DNA from: Eledone cirrhosa
Taxonomy: Eukaryota
NCBI GenBank assembly: GCA_964016885.1
Contig: OZ024741.1
Location: 263,872,001 to 263,936,000, forward strand
Length of the DNA: 64,000 nucleotides
Direction of reading: 5' to 3'
The notes under the pieces are model-generated. The model ran no database searches. It saw nothing but the letters and a program-made list of their open reading frames with translations, and was not told where the DNA came from. A program made the translations under genes and the position numbers. This document shows positions 1,925 to 62,562 of this stretch, piece after piece. The stretch's first letter is position 1, and each line of letters opens with the position of its first letter.

Positions 1925-1925
<1 letters not shown>

Positions 1926-1992
<67 letters not shown>

Positions 1993-2037
1993 ATATCTAT
2001 CTATCTGTCTGTCTGTCTGTCTATCTATCTATTTATC
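1926..2037. repeat. (TATC)n microsatellite
   Basis: Direct tetranucleotide repeat just upstream of truncated Tx1 copy 1. Confidence 0.95.
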
Positions 2038-2412
2038 AGAAGGATCAGGATGGAGAGAGAGGTGCTGCACCCCAGTCGTTTTTATGAAAGGTGGGTGAAA
2101 GTGGCGAGAACGGCCCGTGTGAATGGGCCTTCTCTTTACATAAGCCTGTAGGTGGAAAAGAGGAAGAAACGAGGGAGCACCCCCTCTCTGTGCTCCTGAG
2201 GAGAAGGGTTGCACACTTTTTTCGGGGGTGTGTGCAACCCCCCAAGGCGCCTCCTCTCTATTGAGGATTTTGTTATAATTTTATTTTTTGTTATATTTTA
2301 TTTTATTTTTATATATTGTTATTGCCTCCTCCCTATTGAGGACGCCTTGTTTTGTAAACTCCCCCCATTGTACTTGTCCCACTTTTGATGCCCTGGTGGC
2401 AAATAAAAGAAA
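2038..2412 (+). mobile_element. 5'-truncated Tx1/L1-like retrotransposon, copy 1 (ORF2 end + 3'UTR)
   Basis: Encodes [30 protein letters not shown], matching the ORF2 C-terminus at ~8050-8165. Ends AATAAAAGAAA followed by TATC repeats. Confidence 0.93.
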
Positions 2413-2481
2413 CATATCTATTTATCTATCTATCTATATATCTATTAGTTTCCTCTCGTTTGTCTCTTCTCTTCATTATAA

Positions 2482-2975
2482 TTCAACAAACGAAGGAGAG
2501 GCGGTTTTCGTTTGTGTGATAGCTATGAAAGAGGTTGTATGGTGGACAAGGTTGAAAGGGCTGAGGTCAGACACCTTTCTCTCCGGCCAACAACTGATTC
2601 TTTTTTTCAAATACCACTTTGGAAGAAGAATCAGGATGGAGAGAGAGGTGCTGTACCCCAGCAAGTTTTATGAAAGGTGGGTGAAAGTGGCGAGAATGGC
2701 CCGAGTGAATGGGCCTTCTCTCTATATCAGCCTGTAGGTTGAGGAAAAGGAGGAGGAGAGGAAAGGAGTACAAGCTCTTCGTACTCCTGGAGATGAGGGT
2801 TGCACATTTTTTTTCGGGGGTATGTGTTACCCATATAAACTGTCTCCCTCTATTGGGGAAAATCAACTAACTTTTTAAATTCCATTTGTGATAACATTTT
2901 ACACGTTTTTATTGTATGTAAACTCCCCCCTTTGTATTTGTCCCCTTCTTTTGTGCCCCTGTGGCTAATAAAGAA

Positions 2976-2976
<1 letters not shown>
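2482..2976 (+). mobile_element. 5'-truncated Tx1/L1-like retrotransposon, copy 2
   Basis: NEGEAVFVCVIAMKEVVWWTRLKGLRS...[10 protein letters not shown] matches the ORF2 end. Ends AATAAAGAAA then (TATC)n. Confidence 0.93.
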
Positions 2977-3054
<78 letters not shown>

Positions 3055-3078
3055 CATCCATCTATCTATCTATCTATC
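2977..3078. repeat. (TATC)n microsatellite between copy 2 and the full-length element
   Basis: About 25 TATC units. Confidence 0.95.
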
Positions 3079-3281
3079 TTGATAGAGTAAGACACGCTTC
3101 ACATCGGCTCCGCTATTCCATCGGGATTTACCCTTACTATTGTAAGTACCGGATAAATTTTTCAGTGCAACACATTTGGAACACTAACTCCTGTTATTTA
3201 GGGAAACATTTTTGCATTTACCCCCTTTTTAGGGGGTAAAATAAATATCTATTTTTGCCGAAAAATTTCTTTCTTGGCAGC

Positions 3282-4505
3282 ATGGCGGAAAAGATGGCAG
3301 ACATGTCTGCCATTAGCTCTGCCACGCCCCCCAAGTCTGAAGAACAAAAAATAATTACAACAAAATTAGACAATGAAACAAACAAAGAAAATGAAAAAAC
3401 AAATGTTAATGAAAATGAGCAAACGGAAAACAAACAAACAGAAAATAATACAAATAACAACAGGGCAACTTTCGCCCAGAAAACAAAACAATCCATTACA
3501 TACACACCAATTGACCTAACTGCCGCCAGAGAAAAACTGGCCGAAGCAAAGAAACACATTGTTTTGGGGGAGAACGGAATGTTTTCCATTAACTCCCCCC
3601 CAGAATTCAAGAAAGAAAGAACAGAGAACACAGTTCTCTTCAGAACTATACTGAACCAGACAAGAAAGCCAGCACAGCCCAGCCAAATGGAAATAGAGTT
3701 GGTCCTAAAAGACTATATGAAGAATATTCTCTTCATACGAAAGGACCGACTCTATGGCAGCATTTCGGTCTTAACAAAAGACAAGGAAACGGCGGAGAAG
3801 CTTTCCCTAAGCCCACTCTCATCGACAACATACAGCTTCTATCCCTCCTACATGGGTAGAAGAACACAGAGAGTAAAAGTAAAAACAATGCTGCCCACAA
3901 TGGACTTCTGGTGGGCTATTGCTGGCTTCATAGACATGGGCGAAGACACAATGCTGTCAATGGGGAAGGCAACTGGAGATGCGTTCCTGGGAATGGGCCT
4001 CGACATACTAGTCCAAATGAGGCCCGAAAGAATAGCACAAATCCCGGATCGCATCTGGCTGGATGACCTTACCCCAATAGACATAATTGTAGAGGGGAGA
4101 AGACCAGCATGCTATTTATGCATGGAAAGGGGACACGTTAAGGCTAACTGCCCGAAACGTATCCCCCAAAAAGGACTATTGCCCACACCCACCACAAACA
4201 GTACACCAACACCACCCACCTCCAAAAATACACTAATACCACACACAGCAAACAAAATACAGACACCACCAACCACAAACACAACACAAACATCACCACC
4301 ACCAGCACCAAACACAAGCACGACACAAAAATCACCATCACCAACCACAACACAAACATCACCATCACCAACCACAAGCACGACACAAACATTACCACCA
4401 CCACCACCACCACAAAACCCATTCCAAACAAATAATAAAAAAAACAGTAACAAATCTACCCCTCCCGCAAAAAAAACAACCACACAACACGTCCCTCCCA
4501 CCTAG
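3282..4505 (+). CDS. Retrotransposon ORF1, gag-like nucleic-acid-binding protein
   Basis: ATG at 3282, CX2CX4HX4C knuckle (CYLCMERGHVKANC), Pro/Thr-rich tail. Another frame (..EEFPPTSEEEGGEAFRQVKRKKRK..TPK*) runs to 4722 and probably continues it across an indel in an A-run. Confidence 0.88.
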   Translation: MAEKMADMSAISSATPPKSEEQKIITTKLDNETNKENEKTNVNENEQTENKQTENNTNNNRATFAQKTKQSITYTPIDLTAAREKLAEAKKHIVLGENGMFSINSPPEFKKERTENTVLFRTILNQTRKPAQPSQMEIELVLKDYMKNILFIRKDRLYGSISVLTKDKETAEKLSLSPLSSTTYSFYPSYMGRRTQRVKVKTMLPTMDFWWAIAGFIDMGEDTMLSMGKATGDAFLGMGLDILVQMRPERIAQIPDRIWLDDLTPIDIIVEGRRPACYLCMERGHVKANCPKRIPQKGLLPTPTTNSTPTPPTSKNTLIPHTANKIQTPPTTNTTQTSPPPAPNTSTTQKSPSPTTTQTSPSPTTSTTQTLPPPPPPQNPFQTNNKKNSNKSTPPAKKTTTQHVPPT

Positions 4506-4727
4506 CGCTGAAGAGTTTCCCCCAACTTCTGAAGAAGAAGGAGGAGAAGCCTTCAGACAAGTTAAAAGAAAAAAAAGAAAACACACACCCAGCACACCAC
4601 AAATAACCCACACACAAACACCAACTCCAATCAAAAACACCCCACCCTCAACAAACAAAAATAAATCTGCGCCTCCCGGAGAGGTAGGTGCTTTTCTTTC
4701 TTCACTTTCAACACCAAAATAGATCAA

Positions 4728-7700
4728 TTGAGAGTTGGCTGTTTGAACGCGCGTGGCCTGGGCTCAGCTTGGAAGCAAGCAAAGCTTCTAAATGACCTCA
4801 GGTCACAAAGTATAGATGTGATGGTTGTTTGCGAGAGTCGGATCAGCAGCGTGAGACAGCTGGCGCCCGCCTTCGATGACTTTAAGATGCACGCATCTCT
4901 CTGTCAACCCGGAGGCGGGGGGGGGGGGGGTTGCCGTACTGCTGGATAAACGTCTGGCTCTCGACGTACAGATTGTTCACTCGGACCCGGGGGGTCGATT
5001 ACTGGTGCTGGACGTCGGAGGCGGTGAAGGCGGGGCTTTCAGACTGGTCGGTCTTTATGCCCCCTTCGGGGCGGAAAGAGCCGACTTCTTCCAGCGTCTG
5101 GAGACTTTTCTAGGAACGTCGCGTTCCCTGCTTTTAGTGGGGGACTGGAATGGAATCCTAGATGCGCGTTGGGACTATGCAGGGGTATGTCCCGATAGAG
5201 GGGGGTGTAGCAGCCTCAAGGGGTTACTCGATCGATTCGACCTGGTCGATAGATTTCGACTAGATTGTCCAACTGCGCCAACCTGGACCTGGGCAAACCG
5301 CAGTGGACAATCTAGATCGTACCTAGATAGGTTTTTGGTTAGGAGTAAGGATAGGGACGTATTTAGTTGTCCAGAATTGATCATGGTTGGCTATTCAGAT
5401 CACAAATTAGTGACCTGCGTGGTCAACCTTGATAGAACGCATAGACAGGGTCCCGGTTACTGGAAGATGAACTTGTCCTTGCCGGCAAAGAAAGATTACA
5501 GGAACCGGATTAGTAGCTTAGTTAAGATGCGGTTGACGGGAGCGATCGTCAACAGTAGGTGGTGGGTATCTCTAAAGAGAGAGATTAGAGTAAGTTCGAT
5601 AGGTTACAGTAAGGAACTAGCGGCGAATAGAAATAGGAAGGAAAGGGAGTTAACAGATAAACTAGAAGAGGCGATTAGGAGCGAAGACGTAGCCAGAGTG
5701 TTAGCGGCGAGAACGGCGTTGAGCCAGTTCTATGACGCGAAGCACGAAGGCTGCGTTGTCCGAAGTAAAATACGTGCTTTAGGAAACGAGGGGACCAAAG
5801 CTGTTAGCTGGGCCCGCGTGACAGAAGCCAAGAGTGGGATTAAATCCACCATTCGGTCTTTGCGAGACCAGGATGGACGGGTGATCCTTGAACCTGAGCG
5901 GATGTGCGAGGCCTTTCAAAGGCACTTTGCTCGACTGTTCGGAGGGGGCGGGGGGCCGGACGGGGATGTGGACTTCGGTCCATACCTCGACGGTCTACCG
6001 CGTCTTTCGAGCGGCGAAGCGGAGTGCTGCGAAAGGCCAATCACAGCCACTGAAATCGGGGAAGCGCTCAGCCAATGCAGCAGACGCAAATCCCCGGGTC
6101 TCGATGGTCTACCATACGAATTTTATTTAGCTATGCCGGTCTTGTTCTCCGAACTCCTCGAGGCTGTCTATTGCAACTGGCAACAGAACGGGAGAATTCC
6201 CTGTTCTGTGACCAAGGGCGTGGTCACGCTAGTGAGGAAGGACGAGAGCAAGGGGGACGACTTAAGTAACTTTAGGCCCATAACTCTGCTGAATGCAGAG
6301 TTACAGATTTTGGCCAAGGTGCTGGCGAAGAGGTTGGCGCTTGTGGTGGGTGGTTTGGTGGGAGACGCGCAGACATGCGCTATCCCGTCCAGGTCCATTC
6401 ACGACAACCTCCACCTCATGCGATACATCATAGAGAGGGTTGGCAACGAACCCGGCTTTGGTGGGGCCCTGATCAACTTGGATCAATCTAAGGCGTTCGA
6501 TAGGGTCGACCATGGTTACCTGGATGCGGTGCTAGTGGCGGCGGGCTTCGGACCCGTTTTCATGGGCTGGATTTCTGCCATGCACAGTGGCAACATCTAC
6601 TCTAGGATTAAAGTAAACGGCTACCTCTCGGAGCCGTTTCAAATCACCCGATCCATCAGACAGGGGTGCCCCCTCTCCTCCCTTCTGTACGTATTGACTC
6701 TCGAGCCACTGCTGCGGAAGTTGGAGTTGCTGCGGGGCATACCCCTGGAACCGGGAACCCCTGGAACAAAGCGGTCTCGGCCTATGCCGACGATGTAACA
6801 GTAATGGTGGCGGACGCCTCGGAAATCGGGGCGATCGCCACCCTACTGGAGGAATACGAAAGGCTGACGGGGGCTAGGCTGAACCAGGACAAGTCAGTCG
6901 GTTTGCAACTCGGAACGTGGAGGGGCAAACCGATGCCGTTAGACGGTGTCGTCGGGCGGTGGACGGAGGGCTCGGTGAAGCTGCTCGGGGTCTGGTTCGG
7001 ACCGGACCTCCAGGTGGAGAAGAATTGGGGCGAGGTGACGAGCAGGGTGTTTGCGCTGACCCAGAAGTGGGCCAAGTGCAAACTATCACTGAAAGGTCGG
7101 GCGGAGGTGACGAACGCTTACATAGCGTCCGTCATCTACTACCGCCTGACCGTCGTGCCTTGCCCCAAGGAAAAGCTCACCATCATGGAACGCATGCTCT
7201 TCCAGTTCCTCTGGAAGAAGCGGCCTCCCATGGTGAGGAGATCCATCTGCTGCCAGCACCCTTCGAAAGGAGGGCTGGGTATGCCGTGGCTGTTGATGCG
7301 TAGGCACGCATTGAGGCTACGGCATCTACAGGTATTCCTCAACGGTCAGCCGGTGTGGGCCCCGTTTGTGAGGCGAGCCTTCCCACAGCTCGTCTCGCTC
7401 ACCGAACTGCAATCCTGGGTGAAGCAAAGACCGAGAAAACTGGGCAACTGGCACACCGAGTGTGCCCAGGCGCTCACGGCTATCTGGCAAGCGGACCCGA
7501 CTGTCAGTGGAGAATCCACCTCGACATTCTATAGAGGGTTGGTGGCTAGCAGGGGCGACGACACCCTTGGAGAGTCGCTAGGCATGGAGGAGGACGAACT
7601 GGCCAGCCTGTTCGGTAGAACTTTCGGCCCGGGACCCATGGACAACTTCCAGAGGTCCCTAGCCTGGCAGTGTTACCGGGGGGCTCTGCCCGTTCGAGAA

Positions 7701-8165
7701 AAGCTCTACAGACACGGGCGCCCGGGCAGGGATCCCGCGAAAAAGATCTGTCCCAGATGCGTGCGCGACGAGGAAACCGTTGCGCATGCACTGGTACACT
7801 GCCCGGGCGTTGCCGATCTGTGGGGCTACGTCGAACGACTGCTGTCGCGTGTGGCGCCGATTCGATTAACCGCCGAGTCTGTGGTGAACATCAAGCCGCC
7901 TCCTCCCTTCAGAAATGAAGCAGAGGCGGTCTTTCTGTGCGTAATAGCCATGATGAAAGAGGTTGTGTGGTGGACGCGCCTGAAAGGTCTGAGGTCGGGT
8001 GACTTTCTCTCCGGCCATCACCTGGTTTACTTCTTCCGATACCACTTCGGAAGAAGGATCAGGATGGAGAGAGAAGTGCTTGGTCCCAGACAGTTTTATG
8101 AAAGGTGGGTGAAAGAAGCGAGAATGGCCCGTGTAAATGGGCCTTCTCTCTACATTGTTCTGTAG
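4728..8165 (+). pseudogene. Retrotransposon ORF2: APE endonuclease, reverse transcriptase and C-terminal CCHC, with two frameshifts
   Basis: APE motifs LNARGL, VCES, GDWN, YLDRFLV, SDH. RT motifs SPGLDG, FRPITLLN, DQSKAFDRV, IRQGCPLS, YADD. CPRC..H..HC at the C-terminus. Frameshifts at the G-run ~4917-4930 and near 6750. Confidence 0.93.
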
Positions 8166-8716
8166 GTGAAGAAGTGAAGAGGAAAGGGGGAGCGCCTCCT
8201 CTCTGGGCTTCCCCCGCGAAAAGAGTTGCACACTTTTCGGGGGTATGTGCAATCCCCAACACGCCCCCTCCCTTTTGAGGACTTTTTATTGTTATATTAT
8301 TATTGTTATTCCTTTTTCTTTACTCGATTTATGTAAACTCCCCCACTGTGTAAATGTCCCCTTCTTTTGTGCCCTCGTGGCAAATAAATAGAAATTTATC
8401 TATCTATCTATCTATCCATCCTTCCATCTATCTTTATACCTACGTACCTACTTCGCTCACTATATATATGTCTGTCTGTCTGTCTGTCCATCTATCTATC
8501 AACTCTTCTGTGTCAAGTGTGTTATTCTTTCTCCCATTTTATCTACTCCCTTATCACTATTTTGGGGTGCACCCCTCCTCCATCCCACCCTTCCCCCATT
8601 TTCTCATTATTTCTCATAAATACAATTTCCCTCTTTTCACACCCCTCCCCCTCATTCAAAGCTATACTTTAAGTGTAAAGTCCTCAACAGCTATAACAAG
8701 CCAGAAAATCTCCCCC

Positions 8717-10412: not shown

Positions 10413-11281
10413 CGAAGGAGGAGTGGCAAGGAACCTGATGGACCAAACTACAGCGGGTGTGTTGCATTGCTGTTGAAGGGGCCAAGCTTCGGGCTTACGG
10501 CAAGAGCACCCTGGTGGGGTGCTGCTCTTAGGCTGTTGGAGATGTGGGCCTTCATATTCTTAGCGCAGGAGTACCCTTGTTTTACTCTGTATTTTACACC
10601 CGCTGTAGTTTATGAAGCTGTGGTCACTTCCAACCGACCAAATCAACCACAGGAGGTCAAATCCTATGTGGGAATGGCGGAGGACCGATTAGGAACGCTT
10701 CCTGATCCATCAGTCGACCTTTAGGTACCCGGACAAACGATCATCCACGAAACTCGCGAGCCACGTATGGTCCCACAAGGACTCGAGTATAGACTACTCC
10801 ATTCAATGGAAAGCCATCACTAAGTCCAAGCCATACGCAAGAGGCAATCCGTCTTGTGGACTATGTATTGCTGAACGGATAAATATTCTAAGGAGATTAC
10901 GCAATAGCGATTGCCTAAACTCAAGAAATGACATCTTCACACTTTGTCCACATGTCTGGAAACACCTCTTGAATAACTACAAAGCTCCGGATTGGATAAC
11001 AACAACATCCTAATTTTCTTATCAACTAGAACTACTTTTCGGACTTTCGCAGTTACACCTTTCGCCCGCAGTTTTTCATTGCTTGGGTGAAGTGACCGTT
11101 TCTGTGCATGCGCGTTCATACGGTTGTCCTTCCTATTCCGTATAACCATGACCATTACGAGCTGAGGATCCGCTAAGGTGAAACAATTGTTCTCGGTATG
11201 GTGAACTAACTGTTGTGTTACCACTCTATCTAACTCGTCCCAGGAACTGAGTGCTCTACCACTACGGATATTACCTTCCAG
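10411..11281 (+). mobile_element. Penelope-like element remnant (GIY-YIG C-terminus + pLTR), tentatively Nematis-like
   Basis: AVVYEAVV...YVGMAED, then broken frames giving KLASHVW, CGLCIAE, CLNSRN. Hammerhead downstream. Short inverted repeat at 10445-10460/10596-10611. Starts in (TA)n. Confidence 0.8.
11152..11201 (+). ncRNA. Minimal type I hammerhead ribozyme
   Basis: CGAG-CUGAGGA-U CC gcuaa GG U-GAAA-CAAUUG-UU^CUCG. Stem I CGAG/CUCG extends to CCAU/AUGG. Palindromic stem III. Confidence 0.8.
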
Positions 11282-15444: not shown

Positions 15445-15638
15445 TTATTCCTGAGGGAGTCGTGGGGACAGAGACCTCAAACACTCCTCTCAGTAGGTCC
15501 TGTCAGAAGCAACCGTATTCAACTGATCCAGCTGGATCCCCAAGCGAGACCAGCTAAGCTCATGGATGTTATCCAACCATTTTGCTCAGGGGTCTACCCT
15601 TGGTTCACATATCGGTTGGTTTTTCCCGTAAAATTTGT
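15445..15638 (-). mobile_element. RTE-clade LINE 3' end
   Basis: Degenerate RP.GRP..RW region. Homologous pieces at 21350-21720, 21770-21930, 26140-26340, 31785-32165 and 55060-55130. Confidence 0.8.
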
Positions 15639-16836
15639 CCAGTGATTCTTTCCTGTGACATTCTAACCACATGTCTGTAATATCGGAGCTGTGATCTCTC
15701 AATTCGGAGAAGAAGCAGCTATACCTGGAGTGACTCCACTGATTCTTTCCTGTGACATTCTAACCACATGTCTGTAATATCGGAGCTGTGGTCTCTCAAT
15801 TTGGAGAAGTAGCAGCTATACCTGGAGTGACTCCAGTGATTCTTTCCTGAGACATTCTAACCACATGTCTGTAATATCGGAGCTGTGATCTCTCAATTCG
15901 GAGAAGAAGCAGCTATACCTGGAGTGACTCCACTGATTCTTTCCTGTGACATTCTAACCACATGTCTGTAATATCGGAGCTGTGGTCTCTCAATTCGGAG
16001 AAGTAGCAGCTATACCTGGAGTGACTCCAGTGATTCTTTCCTGAGACATTCTAACCACATGTCTGTAATATCGGAGCTGTGATCTCTCAATTCGGAGAAG
16101 TAGCAGCTATATCTGGAGTGACTCCAATGATTCTTTCCTGAGACATTCTAACCACATGTCTGTAATATCGGAGCTGTGGTCTCTCAATTCGGAGAAGTAG
16201 CAGCTATATCTGGAGTGACTCCAGTGATTCTTTCCTGAGACATTCTAACCACATGTCTGTAATATCGGAGCTGTGGTCTCTCAATTCGGAGAAGTAGCAG
16301 CTATATCTGGAGTGACTCCAGTGATTCTTTCCTGAGACATTCTAACCACATGTCTGTAATATCGGAGCTGTGATCTCTCAATTCGGAGAAGTAGCAGCTA
16401 TACATGGAGTGACTCCAGTGATTCTTTCCTGAGACATTCTAACCACATGTCTGTAATATCGGAGCTGTGGTCTCTCAATTCGGAGAAGTAGCGGCTCAAC
16501 CTGGAGTGACTCCAGTGATTCTTTCCTGTGACATTCTAACCACATGTCTGTAATATCGGAGCTGTGATCTCTCAATTCGGAGAAGTAGCAGCTATACATG
16601 GAGTGACTCCAGTGATTCTTTCCTGAGACATTCTAACCACATGTCTGTAATATCGGAGCTGTGGTCTCTCAATTCGGAGAAGTAGCGGCTCAACCTGGAG
16701 TGACTCCAGTGATTCTTTCCTGTGACATTCTAACCACATGTCTGTAATATCGGAGCTGTGATCTCTCAATTCGGAGAAGTAGCAACTCTACCTGGAGTGA
16801 CTCCAGTGATTCTTTCCTGAGACATTCTATCCACAT
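15639..16836 (-). repeat. 97-bp tandem satellite (~12.3 copies) derived from RTE C-terminal coding sequence
   Basis: Unit starts at 15639, 15736 ... 16803. Minus strand reads LQVEPLLLRIERSQLRYYRHVVRMSQERI. Confidence 0.92.
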
Positions 16837-23247: not shown

Positions 23248-23490
23248 TATATATATAAATAGATATAGATAGATAGATATTTCGTTTCTGAATTTGTTTA
23301 GCAAGATTCTTTATCTGAAAACGTGTGTTGAAACCGATATTGTTATACTTTGGGAGGGTCATGTTGCCAATAAGAAACACACGCACCAGTTGCTTTCACT
23401 TCAATGTATTATAATAAATTTATAAATTTAGGAATTTATAAATTTCCGGTTGGTTGGTTGGTTCCACAACCTGATGATTGTTTATATATT

Positions 23491-23533
23491 GTCAAAGTTC
23501 TTTCGTCACACTTTCTGTGACCTCTTCAGTGAC
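23491..23533 (-). ncRNA. Type I hammerhead ribozyme
   Basis: GUCA-CUGAAGA-G GUCACA gaaag UGUGAC-GAAA-GAAC-UU^UGAC. Confidence 0.8.
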
Positions 23534-23628
23534 TGGGATTCTTTTCTTTGTTTTTGTGCTTCTCCTTTGTTCTGTCATGGCGTAGGACAGAACAAAGGAG
23601 AGGCACAAAAACAAAGAAAAGAATCCCA

Positions 23629-23671
23629 GTCACTGAAGAGGTCACATAATGTGTGACGAAAGAACTTTGAC
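23629..23671 (+). ncRNA. Type I hammerhead ribozyme, inverted sister copy
   Basis: GUCA-CUGAAGA-G GUCACA uaaug UGUGAC-GAAA-GAAC-UU^UGAC. Differs from its sister only in loop II. Confidence 0.8.
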
Positions 23672-24130
23672 AATATATAAACAATCATTTGGTTGTGGAA
23701 CCAACCAACCAGCCGGAAATTTATAAATTCCTAAATTTATAAATTTATTATAATAAATTGAAGTGAAAGCAACTGGTGCGTGTGTTTCTTATTGGCAACA
23801 TGACCCTCCCAAAGTATAACAATATATATAGAAAGTGTAATAAACACGGGTGTGTATGATTGTGTATAGAAGATCATATTAATAAAAGGAATTCCAACTT
23901 TGTCTGATTTACTCGTTTTATTTACAATCCTTTAAAATGTATAATGGTATTAGAATGAAATAGTATGGTAGAATATTAAATGTTAAGTGTTAATTGAACA
24001 AATACTTTCATACTTTCGCAATCTTCAGGTTCAATTGTGTGGTGACAGTCAACTTTGCAATTTTCAATACATGTGCATAGGTCGACTTTGCTTGCTCACA
24101 GCCAAAGCTTCGATTTTACTAAGCTTCCAC

Positions 24131-25740: not shown

Positions 25741-27277
25741 GTATCAACAATAATAGTTTATTGTTGATACTACTTGAAGGGCGGTGGATTGGCAGAATCA
25801 GTAGAGCTCCATATTTTGCGGCATAGAGTTGTAATCATTATCAACTTTTTCTAATATAGGCCCCAGGCTAAAATGTTATGAGGGTGACCAGTCGATAAGA
25901 CAGACCGCAGTACTTGACTGGTTTTTTTAATTTTTTTATCATCTGTGGAGAGATAAAAGACGAAATTGACCTTTGCGAAATTTCAACCAGGACCGATACA
26001 AATACTATGAGACATTCAGTCAATCCACCGTCTTTCTCAGTGAATCAATGTATTGAGTTTAGATTATAGCTTGTAATTTACGTTTATAGTAACTAACCAC
26101 CATATCCTGTGGCCGTATCGATATCTGCCACTTTCGACATGTTCTCTAGCAGAACAGCTTTGGGAAAGACCAACCAGCAGGAGACCCAGGGTTACACATC
26201 TCGAGCAAGATGGTTGGTCTCGCTTGGGGGATACAGTCGGATGAATTGGTGACAGTTGCTTCTGACAGGACCTGCTGGCAGGAGCACTTGAGGAGTCTGT
26301 CGTGTCCCCCCCCACCCTCTCCGGAATAAATGGGCAAAGAAGAAGAAGAAGAAGGGGAAGGGGAAGGAGAAGAAGAAGAAGAAGAAGAAGAAGAAAAAGA
26401 AGGAGGGGAGGAGGAGAAGGAGAATGATTAATAATAATAATAATAAGAAGAAGTTTAGCTATATTTCACTTTAAGGTAAATCTGGTGAGATTATAAAACT
26501 AATTATAAATCTAATTATAAACTAATAAATATAGCAAACTAAATCCTCCTTTTTTTAAAAATCCTGCCATATTTAATTCCGTCGCTGGAATAAATACAGA
26601 TTCCACTGTTGAGAGTTTCCCAAATAGCAAGTCCAATACTGTAATTCCAGTTGAAGTGGCAGACGACTTCAACTCCAGAACTGATATCTGATTGTAACCT
26701 GCAAGAGAGAAATACTTTGCTACCTCCATCATTTGACCTCATGACCTTGTAGTTAGCTAATGTATTTGAAGATATTCAAATAAAGTACCAGTAAAATATT
26801 GGATGGTGGTGGTGATGTAACCGTCTATCCCCACCCCACAAATTGCTGGCCTTGTGTCAAAAACTAGAAATAATTGCGATATAAGGCAATGGATTGGCAG
26901 AATCATTAAGATGTCGAACAAAATGTGACATTAGTTATGTCCCTTTACTTTCTGAGTTCAAATCCCGCCGAGATTTGGTTTGGCATTCATCACTCCCACC
27001 AATATATATAACGGTGTACTCATGTAAGAAATCATTATTATTTGTCATGGCGGAATGGAGAAGGCGGCTTCTTGGCATAGTCGTTAGAACATCGGATAGA
27101 ATACTTTGCCCTGGTATTCATTTCCACTCACTTCTCTCTGAGTTCAAATCCCGCCGAGGTCAACTTTGCCTTTTATCCATTCGAGGTCGATAAAAAGTAC
27201 CAGTCTAGTACTGGAGTCGATTTTTCCTCTATATGCCTTTCTCACTTCCTCTCTCTCTCTCTCTATATATATATATA

Positions 27278-27496
27278 AAGGAACGATCGACTTTCGTCAA
27301 ATCGGACCGAGGGCACAATGTTTCCGTTGGTCTTTCCAATTGCTAATACTATCTATCGGTCGCAACTCCAGGTAGAAGGAGCAACGTGAAATAAAGTGTC
27401 TTGCTCAAGGACATAACGCATCGCCTGGTCCAGGAATCGAACTCACAACCTTACGATTGCGAATCCAATTCTCTAACCACTCAGCCACACGCATTC
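27278..27496 (-). mobile_element. Young tRNA-derived SINE (third family) nested in an older SINE
   Basis: Near-identical to 57733-57953. A-box TGGCTGAGTGG, B-box GAGTTCGATTCC. Apparent TSD tctctctctata(t/c)atatatat. Confidence 0.85.
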
Positions 27497-28090
27497 TCTC
27501 TCTCTATACATATATATATATATATACATACATACATATATATATTATATATATATCCTTCTCTGGAAGAAATCTGCTGTATTCAAACCTGGAGAGAAGG
27601 GATACGCCAGGTTTAGAAATGCCCGAGAAACGCTGTATGTCAAAATGGCACCTCTACGACATCCCCCAAAGTTACGAGTCCATACATATATGTATGGCAG
27701 AATAGAGTATGTGGCAGTTCCGGAACTTCTGTGATTATATGTCATATCTCTATAAGGAAAACAAATGGATTAAAACAAAAAAGTCACAGATTTTTTATTC
27801 AATAGCCGAGGAGGAAATGAAACAAGGAGAGGCTTGATAAGATTCCTCTAAAATATTCATTCTTTTAACCTATTTCATTCTACACATTTCTCTTTTATTT
27901 TTCAGATAAGTTTTTCCGGCAATTCTCTATATTCTAATCTCAACGTCTCACTGAAGAGACTATTTCTATATACAGTGGTCAAGAGTTTTAATCAGCTTCC
28001 TTCCTGTCTTCTTTTCTGTACATTCCTATCAAACACCTAATCAGATTCCCACGTTTCTTCAGCATTCTTTAACAATTTAAAGGTGATGAG

Positions 28091-28443
28091 CAGTTAAGGG
28101 CAGACTCGACAGAGTACCACTAATATGTTAGAGTGTAGCACTGAAAGTTAGACTCGACAGAGTACCGTTTGACAGTTAAGGGCAGACTCGACAGAGTGCC
28201 GTTAATATTTTAGAGTGTCGCAGTTAAGGGCAGACTCGACAGAGTACCGTTAATATTTTAGAGTGTACAGTTAAGGGCAGACTCGACAGAGTACCGTTAA
28301 TATTTTAGAGTGTAGCAGTTAAGGGCAGACTCGACAAAGTGGCGTTAATATTTTAGAGTGTAGCAGTTAAGGGCAGACTTGACAGAGTGCCGTTAATATT
28401 TTAGAGTGTAGCAGTTAAGGGCAGACTCGGCAGAGTGCCGTTA
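28091..28443. repeat. 48-bp minisatellite, ~8 copies
   Basis: Unit CAGTTAAGGGCAGACTCGACAGAGTRCCGTTAATATTTTAGAGTGTAG. Confidence 0.9.
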
Positions 28444-29927
28444 AAAAAAAAAGAAAGAATTTGTTCTCGAGTCCAAATCCCATCGAGTTGACATTTCTTT
28501 TCAGCTTTCAATCAATAAATCAATGAAGATCTAATATTATTTAATTAACTAGTCTATTCCTCCAACACATTTGTCCTATTGTTGCTTTTCTATGTATTTC
28601 TGAAATCCCGCCCAACATTTGGACCCAGAAACGGATTATGACGAGTTATAAAAAATAATAAAACTTTATATTCAGACATGTATTGTACAAGTTGTCACAT
28701 TATTATATGGTCATTTGTTAAAAAAATATAGCCTTTTGAAATATAGCCTTTTTTGATATACACTGTATAAAGAACTATTATTTTGTCACTGAATTATCAC
28801 GGGACCAGAGCTCCATTGGTAATTGAATAGTTGCTTATATTGCTTGCTTCCACTTTGTGGAAAAATTGTTATATTTAATATACAGAGCGGGGTGGTGTGG
28901 ATCCCTAAAGCCTGGGCAGAAATGTGGAGTTTATACTTCTGTAAATGTGGAGTTTATACTTCAGAAATGGGGAGTTTAATCTATCAGACATTATGAATAA
29001 ATTCCAGAAACCTTTATAGCCTGTAGTTCTATGAAGATTGACTTCCAACACCAGACAACTTATATAAATGCGACAGTACGGCCAGCAGAATATATTCGTG
29101 ATTTCTGCAAAATGTCTGCCCTGGAGCTAAACAAAATTAGAAATCGTTATTATAAAGTCACTTTTACTGAAATCACGAGAAAAATTGATTCCCCTCTGTT
29201 GAATCCTATTTAGCATTTGCAAAAGTGAGTAAATTTTCTTGTCATTCATTTTTCATTTTTCACCCTATCCCCTTTACTCAGCTACCTCGCCATTTTATTT
29301 TGCAGAAATGCAGCTTAGATTATTATCTAGGCAGGACATATAGATAAAAATTGCCAATATACTACAACTAGCTTTCAGTATAAATTAAAAACTATATTCA
29401 CATAGTCACGTATTTATTTTCAATTTCATTTCTCTGCAAAATTTTCAACGATTTTTCCTACAGCAGACAAGAAATTCGTATCAGTTGTACACCCAATCTC
29501 CATAACAATATAGATTTTTTCTTCTCTTTTCTAACCTACAGAATAAATAATATTAGGAATATTGTAGTCCTTCGTGCTATTCAAGCATCATCAGATTATT
29601 GCAATGACAAAATCATATATTTTCACTAGCTCTGACAGTTGGCAGGTAAGCAGTATACTGTACTGATGAAAGATAATCACCCAGAAACATTAGTGTCTGC
29701 AGTTCTGTTTACATGCCAACACAAGAGCAAGAATGATGGTATCATTCTACTGACATGGCTTAAAGAAACTGTTTGCATAATTGAAAACGAATCGAATATT
29801 ATTATGTATTCAGCCATGTAGAGCGATAAACTATCTGTTAGTTATTTTTTTTTCCTTTTCTTTTAATTTTCAAGAAATAAACTTTGATAAGGATGATATA
29901 TACACGTATATATATATATATATATAA

Positions 29928-57680: not shown

Positions 57681-57732
<52 letters not shown>

Positions 57733-57736
<4 letters not shown>

Positions 57737-57953
57737 AGGCGTGTGGCTGAGTGGTTAGAGAATTGGATTCGCAATCGTAAGGTTGTGAGTTCGATTCCTG
57801 GACCAGGCGATGCGTTATGTCCTTGAGCAAGACACTTTATTTCACGTTGCTCCTTCTACCTGGAGTTGCGACCGATAGATAGTATTAGCAATTGGAAAGA
57901 CCAACGGAAACATTATTTCCTCGGTCCGATTTGACGAAAGTCGATCGTTCCTT
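57733..57953 (+). mobile_element. Young tRNA-derived SINE (third family) in (TA)n
   Basis: Near-identical to 27278-27496. No poly(A) tail. Both flanks are TA repeats. Confidence 0.85.
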
Positions 57954-58229
57954 TATATATATAGCGGCGATGAATTAGTTTAGCGAGGTTTTTTATATGA
58001 AATCGTGTGTCGAAACAGATATTGTTATACTTGGGGAGGGTCATATTTGCGTAATATTGCCAGAATTAATACCACAATGGTAGAAATAACAGTAACAACA
58101 ACAATAACGGTGAAGTAAACAACAATACATCTAGCAATCATAACAATAATAATAATGCTAATGATAGAAACAACAACAACCACCCTGATAACAACAATAG
58201 CAACACACACAACTATGACGATAGATATA

Positions 58230-61895: not shown

Positions 61896-62434
61896 TGGGG
61901 CCATGTCGAACAACTGCTGTCACGGGTGGGACCAATCCGGTTGACCACTGAGTCCATTGTAACGACCAAGCCGCCTCCCCCCTTCAACAATGAAGGAGAG
62001 ACGGTCTTCCTCTGTGTAATAGCCATGGTGAAAGAGGTGGTATGGCGGACACATTTGAAAGGGCTGAGGTCGGACACCTTTCTCTCCGGCCAACAACTGG
62101 TCCTTTTCTTTAAATACCATTTTAAGAGAAGGATCAGAATGGAGAGAGAGGTGCTCTACCCCAGCGAGAATGGCCCGTGTGAATGGGCCTTCTCTCTTTA
62201 TCAGCCTGTAGGTGGAAAGGTGGAAGTTCAAAGGAGCACCCCTTCTCTGTGCCCCTAAGGAAAAGGGTTGCACACTTTTTCGGGGGTGTGTGTAACCCCC
62301 AAAACGCCTCCTCCCTATTGAGGACTGTATTGTTAATTTTATATTTGTTATTTGTTTTTTACTCGTTCCTTTATGTAAATTTCCCCCTTGTATTTGTCCC
62401 CTTCTTTTGTGCCCTCGTGGCAAATAAATAGAAA
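61896..62434 (+). mobile_element. 5'-truncated Tx1/L1-like copy 4, in (TA)n
   Basis: [20 protein letters not shown]...[10 protein letters not shown] plus a 3'UTR ending AATAAATAGAAA. Confidence 0.92.
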
Positions 62435-62562
62435 CTTATATATATATATATACAGAGTACTATGTACATATATATATTGCATTTTTTCTTAGAATATATT
62501 TACTCTTCCTATTTAAATAACTATATATACACACACACACATGTATATATATAGATACATAC

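What the first reader, a model, noticed from the sequence alone, without database searches (positions are those of the whole stretch)
1926..8420. Tx1-like retrotransposon piling up in a (TATC)n microsatellite: candidate new target-specific family
Seen: three diverged copies (2038, 2482, 3079) in the same orientation, separated by TATC tracts. None has a poly(A) tail, and all end AATAAA(T)AGAAA just before TATC repeats. Established: Tx1-clade APE elements include sequence-specific families (Kibi and Koshi in microsatellites, Keno, Mutsu, Dewa). Inference: the endonuclease targets GATA/TATC repeats strand-specifically and successive subfamilies re-insert at the same site. I know of no such described family in molluscs but cannot search for one.
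Basis: partly seen in the sequence, partly recalled or inferred. Interest (0 to 1): 0.75.

Follow-up and report, generated by a model that had tools for sequence, protein, structure and literature searches.

The report
Octopod LINE that targets TATC repeats
This is a young, abundant jumping gene in what is likely an octopus-type genome; its copies sit mostly in TATC/GATA short repeats, facing one way, likely because its own DNA-cutting enzyme picks that repeat, and a close sister family sits in ATT repeats instead, which would allow a direct test of how such elements choose a target.

Summary
Real. Three same-orientation copies from three subfamilies lie in TATC tracts at 2038, 2482 and 3080. 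A fourth (61896) lies in (TA)n. Genome-wide, 557 of 566 5' ends of the youngest subfamily follow TATCT in one phase, and 198 of 221 sampled 3' ends run into TATCT; none has poly(A). The repeat behaves as a target, not a tail: 25 of 40 genome-order truncated copies have TATC at or near the 5' junction (background under 2%), and several carry 8-22 bp target duplications starting at the 3' TATC, including window copy 1. Eleven of those 40 junctions lack it, and TA/TC sites are also used, so the preference is strong but not strict. ORF2 (endonuclease, RT, zinc finger) falls among Tx1-type elements, apart from the fish group. A sister family (67% identical) sits in (ATT)n. Endonuclease-driven targeting is inferred, not assayed. 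I found no paper on this target; Repbase could not be searched. This scan noted the family at eight other loci of this genome. New variant of a known kind.

The parts
1925..2037 (+). (TATC)n tract upstream of copy 1; its last 12 bases (2026-2037) are the 5' copy of a target-site duplication
2038..2414 (+). Copy 1: 5'-truncated, subfamily C1a (96.5% to a full-length C1a copy); ORF2 C-terminus and 3' UTR, ending AATAAAAGAAA-CA
2415..2445 (+). Imperfect TATC tract; 2415-2426 is the 3' copy of the 12-bp duplication TATCTATTTATC
2446..2481 (.). 36 non-repeat bases between the tract and copy 2; not explained by a target duplication
2482..2978 (+). Copy 2: 5'-truncated, subfamily C2 (98% to a full-length C2 copy), ending AATAAAGAAA-TC
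2979..3079 (+). (TATC)n tract between copies 2 and 3, ending in TATCT
3080..8396 (+). Copy 3: youngest subfamily Y, both ends present, 5.3 kb (typical unit 5.70 kb), about 1.3% from other Y copies
3142..3147 (+). Splice-donor-like GTAAGT in the 5' UTR; a GT[AG]AGT lies 30-63 bases from the 5' end in all five TATC reference copies; function untested
3282..4722 (+). ORF1 (broken in this copy; 611 aa in L063) with a CCHC zinc knuckle at about 4107-4157 and a Pro/Thr-rich region
   Evidence: Pfam zf-CCHC E 0.012-0.019, below its curated cut-off
4719..8165 (+). ORF2 (broken in this copy near 4917 and 6757): APE endonuclease, reverse transcriptase, zf-RVT; in subfamily Y the expected start position holds ATA, overlapping the ORF1 stop
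8166..8396 (+). 3' UTR with AATAAA (8383-8388), ending GAAA-TT, no poly(A)
8397..8433 (+). TATC tract downstream of copy 3
61896..62436 (+). Copy 4: truncated, subfamily B, with (TA)n on both sides; a relaxed-target insertion outside the reported interval

Best explanation
This is a recently expanded lineage of Tx1-type LINE retrotransposons whose copies sit mainly in (TATC)n microsatellites in one orientation and phase, likely because the element's APE endonuclease nicks the GATA strand of that repeat. Shown: the position, orientation and phase of insertions; 8-22 bp target-site duplications starting at the TATC just after the element's 3' end; absence of poly(A); head-to-tail stacking of at least five subfamilies. 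Inferred: (1) the endonuclease nicks near GATA/GATA, and the freed end primes reverse transcription at the element's 3' end, probably by pairing with a few read-through UAUC bases rather than with a poly(A) tail; (2) a second cut 8-22 bases downstream makes the duplication; (3) each insertion leaves TATC on both sides, so the site stays a target and later subfamilies pile up; (4) full-length RNAs probably begin inside the upstream TATC tract, so the cDNA end would pair with the target, which would explain the fixed TATCT junction and the rarity of 5' truncation in the youngest subfamily.
For: 5' phase: 557 of 566 Y 5' ends follow TATCT genome-wide; 30 of 30 inspected have a TATC tract. 3' side: of 221 copies, 198 run into TATCT, 1 into TATC, 8 into (TA)n, 7 into (TC)n and 7 into other sequence; 0 have poly(A) and 0 are GATA-oriented. 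Truncated copies in genome order: 25 of 40 have TATC at or within 30 bases of the 5' junction, 4 have TA/TC, 11 have other sequence; background is 0.14% strict and 1.9% lenient. Thirteen truncated copies duplicate sequence beyond the perfect TATC run; about six include clearly non-repeat bases (L242, L243 twice, L129, L186, L236), and window copy 1 has a 12-bp imperfect duplication. Where the 3' flank is (TA)n, the 5' flank is also (TA)n in L208, L209 and window copy 4. The five reference copies have different 5' ends, yet all begin after TATC-type repeat. 23 of 35 and 10 of 30 full-length Y copies lie within 150 bases of a relative's 3' end, and 6153 of 27717 counted (TATC)4 tract starts follow an element-type 3' end. 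A sister family (ORF2 67% identical, same AATAAAGAAA-NN end) has (ATT)n downstream in 25 of 25 copies, and 19 of 20 fetched copies share one 5' start directly after (ATT)n. The APE catalytic motifs align with human L1 ORF2p. For step 4: 0 of 13 full-length copies with a short 3' TATC run duplicate non-repeat bases, against 13 of 52 truncated (Fisher p = 0.055); 38 of 39 fetched young copies are full-length.
Against: No nicking assay and no RNA data. 11 of 40 genome-order truncated junctions, and 19 of 76 in the whole census after setting aside 4 that adjoin element sequence, have no TATC nearby, including window copy 2 and the only truncated Y copy (L094). TA and TC sites are used. The 76-copy census is biased towards TATC because loci were fetched around other copies; the 40-copy set is the fair one. 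No pre-insertion (empty) allele was seen (inconclusive). The full-length versus truncated contrast is borderline, and it also compares young with old subfamilies. Duplication ends inside perfect repeats cannot be fixed, so the nick is placed only to within about 4 bases.
Confidence: 0.85

Rival explanations
1. TATC is written by the element itself (a repeat tail, plus a repeat head on full-length RNA) and insertion is largely random.
For: No poly(A) and an almost constant TATCT after the 3' end; a fixed TATCT before full-length 5' ends; 11 of 40 truncated junctions lack TATC; about a fifth of counted TATC tracts begin at an element end.
Against: Truncated copies have lost any head, yet 25 of 40 still sit at TATC. 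Duplications begin at the first 3' TATC and run into unique sequence. Flanks switch together to (TA)n on both sides. Half of the full-length Y copies sampled (33 of 65) lie just behind a relative's 3' end.
Confidence: 0.05
2. The endonuclease is only loosely specific (AT-rich or pyrimidine/purine-skewed repeats), and the TATC bias comes mostly from pairing between read-through UAUC in the RNA and the nicked DNA, so specificity is inherited through the flank.
For: Use of TA and TC sites. The hairpin loop differs little between the TATC and ATT families. Loop grafts changed L1 nicking only partly (PMC1950540, passages). Pairing of target-like RNA with the cut strand aids priming in SART1Bm and R1Bm (PMC7265360, passages).
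Against: TATC and ATT families form separate, well-supported clades with many endonuclease differences. The endonuclease is held to be the main determinant in site-specific elements (PMC4494074 and PMC7265360, passages). This rival shares most steps with the best explanation and may contribute alongside it.
Confidence: 0.2
3. Copies insert widely and survive only in microsatellites (selection), or the arrays arise by tandem duplication or assembly error.
For: A few adjacent Y copies share near-identical spacer tracts (L082 and L083), which could be DNA-level duplication.
Against: Copies only about 1% diverged already show the fixed phase. Neighbours are usually different subfamilies about 80-84% alike. 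Selection would not fix strand and phase. Pieces of the Y family occur in contigs or reads of four public runs.
Confidence: 0.03

Closest known systems
Kibi (TC)n and Koshi (TTC)n, Tx1 clade, teleost fish; crocodilian Tx1-1_Crp-type families in (TTCC)n/(TTTC)n (PMC4494074 and PMC3812793, passages)
   Same: Tx1-type APE elements inserted in a pyrimidine-rich strand of a microsatellite.
   Different: The target is TATC and the host is an octopod. The lineage is separate from the fish Tx1-named group in the RT tree (33-38% identity to it over the RT region).
Keno (U2 snRNA), Mutsu (5S rRNA), Dewa (tRNA), Tx1L (Tx1D)
   Same: Same radiation: U2-flanked and 5S-flanked relatives were recovered and placed in the tree.
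   Different: These target RNA genes or a transposon. Keno and Tx1L targets are from PMC4494074 passages; the Mutsu and Dewa targets are recalled.
Waldo (ACAY)n, MinoAg1 (AC)n, Dong (TAA)n (PMC3812793, passages); SART1Bm, TRAS1, R1Bm (PMC7265360, passages)
   Same: Repeat-specific insertion; precedent for RNA-target pairing at priming and for retargeting by endonuclease swap.
   Different: They belong to other clades (clade assignments partly recalled) and use other targets; SART1Bm copies end in poly(A), these do not.
L1-Tx1 families in Octopus vulgaris (PMC13282606, passages)
   Same: 13 recently active L1-Tx1 families with 421 near-full-length insertions are tabulated; this lineage may be among them.
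   Different: The main text has no occurrence of 'target' and says nothing on insertion sites. Its library and supplements were not examined.

Membership tests
Tx1 clade (L1 group) non-LTR retrotransposons | ORF2 with N-terminal APE endonuclease, RT and C-terminal zinc finger | tested here: met
   Pfam Exo_endo_phos E 1.8e-11, RVT_1 E 5.5e-24, zf-RVT E 2.8e-5 (the last is below its curated cut-off); aligns to human L1 ORF2p over residues 26-875.
Tx1 clade (L1 group) non-LTR retrotransposons | ORF1 with a CCHC zinc knuckle (feature recalled) | tested here: inconclusive
   A CX2CX4HX4C motif is visible, but Pfam zf-CCHC scores 15.5-16.1 bits against a cut-off of 20.8.
Tx1 clade (L1 group) non-LTR retrotransposons | RT groups with Tx1 elements | tested here: met
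   The octopod clade (100/99) joins the fish Tx1-named group (99/96) and then the U2-flanked elements (96/94). Caveats: midpoint root, no Repbase references, no vertebrate L1 row, 48 of 97 available rows used.
Target-specific Tx1 families | One sequence type in more than 20% of flanks (criterion in PMC4494074, passage) | tested here: met
   557 of 566 5' ends; 198 of 221 3' ends; 25 of 40 truncated junctions.
Target-specific Tx1 families | Sequence-specific nicking by the endonuclease | not testable with these tools
   Needs a nicking assay.
Kibi/Koshi | Target is (TC)n or (TTC)n | tested here: not met
   (TC)n in 7 of 221 3' flanks, TATCT in 198.
Kibi/Koshi | RT falls inside the teleost Kibi/Koshi group | tested here: inconclusive
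   It lies outside the fish Tx1-named clade sampled, but no row is verified as Kibi or Koshi (one search gave no accession).
Typical L1-group elements | Poly(A) tail on inserted copies (feature recalled) | tested here: not met
   0 of 221 copies.
Any existing Repbase or Dfam family | An entry describing this family and target | not testable with these tools
   No such library is held.

The most novel reading that the evidence does not exclude
An undescribed octopod Tx1 radiation in which both ends of the element's RNA borrow the microsatellite they sit in: transcription starts in the upstream repeat and runs into the downstream repeat. Both ends then pair with the target, giving poly(A)-free, phase-exact and mostly full-length insertions. 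Sister lineages in one genome have switched between TATC and ATT, making a natural pair for mapping APE specificity and a scaffold for full-length targeted insertion.
Probability: 0.4. Interest if true: 0.68.

Novelty: new variant of a known kind. Interest (0 to 1): 0.5.

Why it matters
How APE-type elements recognise microsatellites is described as poorly understood (PMC3812793, passage). Here two young sister families with uninterrupted ORF2 copies, 67% identical, occupy different repeats in one genome, so endonuclease swaps and RNA-end swaps can separate protein from RNA contributions. The high full-length fraction is unusual for L1-group elements (recalled) and bears on the poorly understood 5' integration step. 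In practical terms, about a fifth of the counted TATC tracts begin at an element end, which matters for GATA markers and for repeat annotation in octopods.

Tried and rejected
Ribozyme at the 5' end: Rfam gave 8 weak hits, all far below their gathering scores; rejected. A hairpin between the flanking CTATC and the GAT[AG]G at the element start is possible in four reference copies but absent in C2; not pursued. Copy 4 as a separate (TA)-specific family: rejected, since 27 of 32 B copies run into TATCT. Spliced retrocopies of subfamily Y: the two degenerate searches gave 4 and 1 matches, all unspliced variants, and no spliced junction was found in the fetched loci; the donor-like motifs remain unexplained. 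Empty-site test: laying four public runs on L062 showed no joint that skips the element among the 15 listed of 99; contigs and reduced-representation reads make this inconclusive, and the window's own site was not examined with reads. Expression: no RNA holder listed. Hosts and targets of the unnamed 40-50% relatives: cluster look-ups gave no organism, the first metagenome scan found nothing, the second returned only relatives at 24-40% identity, and the Atlas gave no result. The mismatch-tolerant duplication count was inflated by pure repeats and was replaced by the strict count. Rows dropped: of 221 copies, 128 entered the junction census; the rest lacked 60 bases of 5' flank, were under 90% to a reference, or were duplicates. 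Literature searches returned no paper on a TATC/GATA-specific Tx1 element. Kojima and Fujiwara 2004 and Anzai 2005 were not read, and the supplements of PMC4494074, which may list further targets, were unavailable.
Full report
Observation. The window holds three same-strand relatives at 2038-2414, 2482-2978 and 3080-8396, each followed by two variable bases and a TATC tract, and none has poly(A). Their shared 3' parts are 81-85% alike. Copy 2 is separated from the upstream tract by 36 non-repeat bases. A fourth relative at 61896-62436 sits in (TA)n.

Anatomy. Copy 3 belongs to a young subfamily (Y). Of 39 further copies fetched, the best scorers for the 3' end, 38 are full-length at about 5.7 kb. 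Mean pairwise distance is 1.05%, and 6 of the 38 have both ORFs uninterrupted. ORF1 (611 aa) has a CCHC-like knuckle; ORF2 has APE, RT and zf-RVT domains and aligns to human L1 ORF2p, including the endonuclease motifs. The window copy lacks about 390 bases of ORF1 and has three frame breaks. The genome is 3.0 Gb, and the best named ORF2 relative is from Argonauta hians (67%), so the host is probably an octopod. Exact 3'-end motifs occur 722 (Y and B), 6155 (C2) and 3479 (C1) times; these are lower bounds. Copies 1, 2 and 4 belong to C1a, C2 and B. The five reference copies are about 80-84% alike and have different 5' ends.

Target or tail. Genome-wide, 557 of 566 Y 5' ends follow TATCT. Among 221 distinct copies with a 3' end in the fetched DNA, 198 run into TATCT, 1 into TATC, 8 into (TA)n, 7 into (TC)n and 7 into other sequence; none has poly(A) or GATA orientation. 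The key test is truncated copies, which cannot carry an element-encoded head. From 60 genome-order hits, 40 truncated junctions could be resolved: 25 TATC, 4 TA/TC and 11 other; 13 hits extended beyond the fetched DNA, 1 was too diverged, and 6 were full-length with TATC at or near the junction. Background is 0.14% for two units and 1.9% for the lenient class. Thirteen truncated copies duplicate sequence past the perfect repeat, 8-22 bases in twelve and 28 in one, always starting at the first repeat unit after the element; several include unique bases, and window copy 1 has a 12-bp imperfect duplication. So the repeat after the 3' end is mostly target DNA. Against strictness: 19 of 76 truncated junctions in the full census have no TATC nearby and do not adjoin recognised element sequence; some are probably later deletions or poor reference matches, but this was not shown. 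An empty allele was not seen (inconclusive).

Piling up. 23 of 35 and 10 of 30 full-length Y copies lie within 150 bases of a relative's 3' end. 6153 of 27717 counted (TATC)4 starts follow an element-type end (starts preceded by C are not counted, so the fraction is rough). Stacking follows from a target that survives insertion. A further preference for element-adjacent tracts is possible but not established.

Relatives. In an RT tree of 48 rows, the TATC subfamilies form one clade (100/100) within an octopod clade (100/99). That clade is sister to unnamed proteins at 40-50% identity, then to a group containing a tick protein, then to fish Tx1-named proteins (99/96), then to U2-flanked elements (96/94) (flanks; a 95-row quick tree gave the same groups with the deeper order unresolved). 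The root is a midpoint and no labelled Repbase or vertebrate L1 row was available. Earlier notes of this scan describe the same TATC family at eight other loci of this genome, and several mention an ATT sister. I tested that lead: a protein search recovered a family 67% identical in ORF2 with the same AATAAAGAAA-NN end, (ATT)n downstream in 25 of 25 copies, and one shared 5' start after (ATT)n in 19 of 20. The notes' TGTC and transposon targets were not tested. The endonuclease hairpin loop, which probes the minor groove in L1 (PMC1950540, passages), has Ser at its fourth position in the TATC subfamilies and Ile in the ATT family, among many other differences.

Mechanism. Most likely (0.85) the APE nicks the GATA strand and target-primed reverse transcription starts at the element's 3' end. 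AATAAA lies only 6-8 bases from that end, so the transcript probably reads into the repeat, and priming probably uses that pairing rather than poly(A); target-like RNA aids priming in SART1Bm and R1Bm (PMC7265360, passages). A second cut 8-22 bases downstream would give the duplication. Full-length copies end their 5' flank in ATCT in 45 of 52 cases, and never duplicate unique bases (0 of 13 informative, against 13 of 52 truncated; p = 0.055). This suggests, weakly, that the RNA also starts inside the upstream repeat and that its cDNA end pairs with the target. These steps are inferred; no RNA or enzyme data exist here.

Known kinds and novelty. Microsatellite-specific Tx1 elements are known for (TC)n, (TTC)n, (TTCC)n and (TTTC)n (PMC4494074, passages), and other elements for ACAY, AC and TAA (PMC3812793, passages). 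Eight searches returned no TATC/GATA-specific element. A 2026 O. vulgaris annotation lists 13 active L1-Tx1 families without discussing targets (PMC13282606, passages). Repbase, the 2004 Kojima and Fujiwara paper and the PMC4494074 supplements could not be seen. The element works like Kibi and Koshi and is a Tx1-type element, but it is not filed as Kibi or Koshi. Verdict: new variant of a known kind, interest 0.5.

Noticed in passing
window 3142-3147 and 4684-4689; L063, L224, L238, L239, L252, L371: A splice-donor-like GT[AG]AGT lies 30-63 bases from the 5' end in all five TATC reference copies and again shortly before the ORF2 start (also in the ATT sister; GTAGGT in the window copy); the ORF2 stop lies in an acceptor-like CTGTAG/GT in four of five. 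No spliced retrocopy was found.
   Followed up: partly
window 4719-4722; L063: Subfamily Y, the youngest, has ATA overlapping the ORF1 stop where C1a, C1b and B have the ORF2 ATG; this suggests non-AUG or coupled translation.
   Followed up: partly
L345-L389: Young sister family, about 6.0 kb and mostly 99% identical, inserted in (ATT)n and also stacked head to tail.
   Followed up: yes
window 61896-62436: Subfamily B copy in (TA)n on both sides, a relaxed-target insertion.
   Followed up: yes
L260, L268-L271, L277 (metagenome loci): Tx1-type relatives with U2 snRNA or 5S rRNA matches beside them, resembling Keno and Mutsu.
   Followed up: partly
P0004-P0074: A large group of unnamed ORF2 proteins, about 40-50% identical, is the nearest outside relative of the octopod clade; hosts and targets are unknown.
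   Followed up: partly
window from 33238, about 40 units: 80-bp satellite array with 97-99% identity between units.
   Followed up: no
window 15638-16836 and 28173-28444: 97-bp (12.4 copies) and 48-bp (5.7 copies) tandem arrays.
   Followed up: no
window 23337-23825: Near-perfect inverted repeat with 240-base arms, 97% complementary, 9 bases apart; fold-back or MITE-like.
   Followed up: no
window 27268-27545 and 57686-57963: Two inverted copies of a 278-base dispersed repeat, 96% alike.
   Followed up: no
window 10693-11013: Short open frame that resembles a Penelope-type nuclease fragment (recalled); Pfam found nothing.
   Followed up: partly
run X5 on L062: A run with a different organism label holds pieces nearly identical to subfamily Y, so the family may be shared with a close relative.
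   Followed up: no
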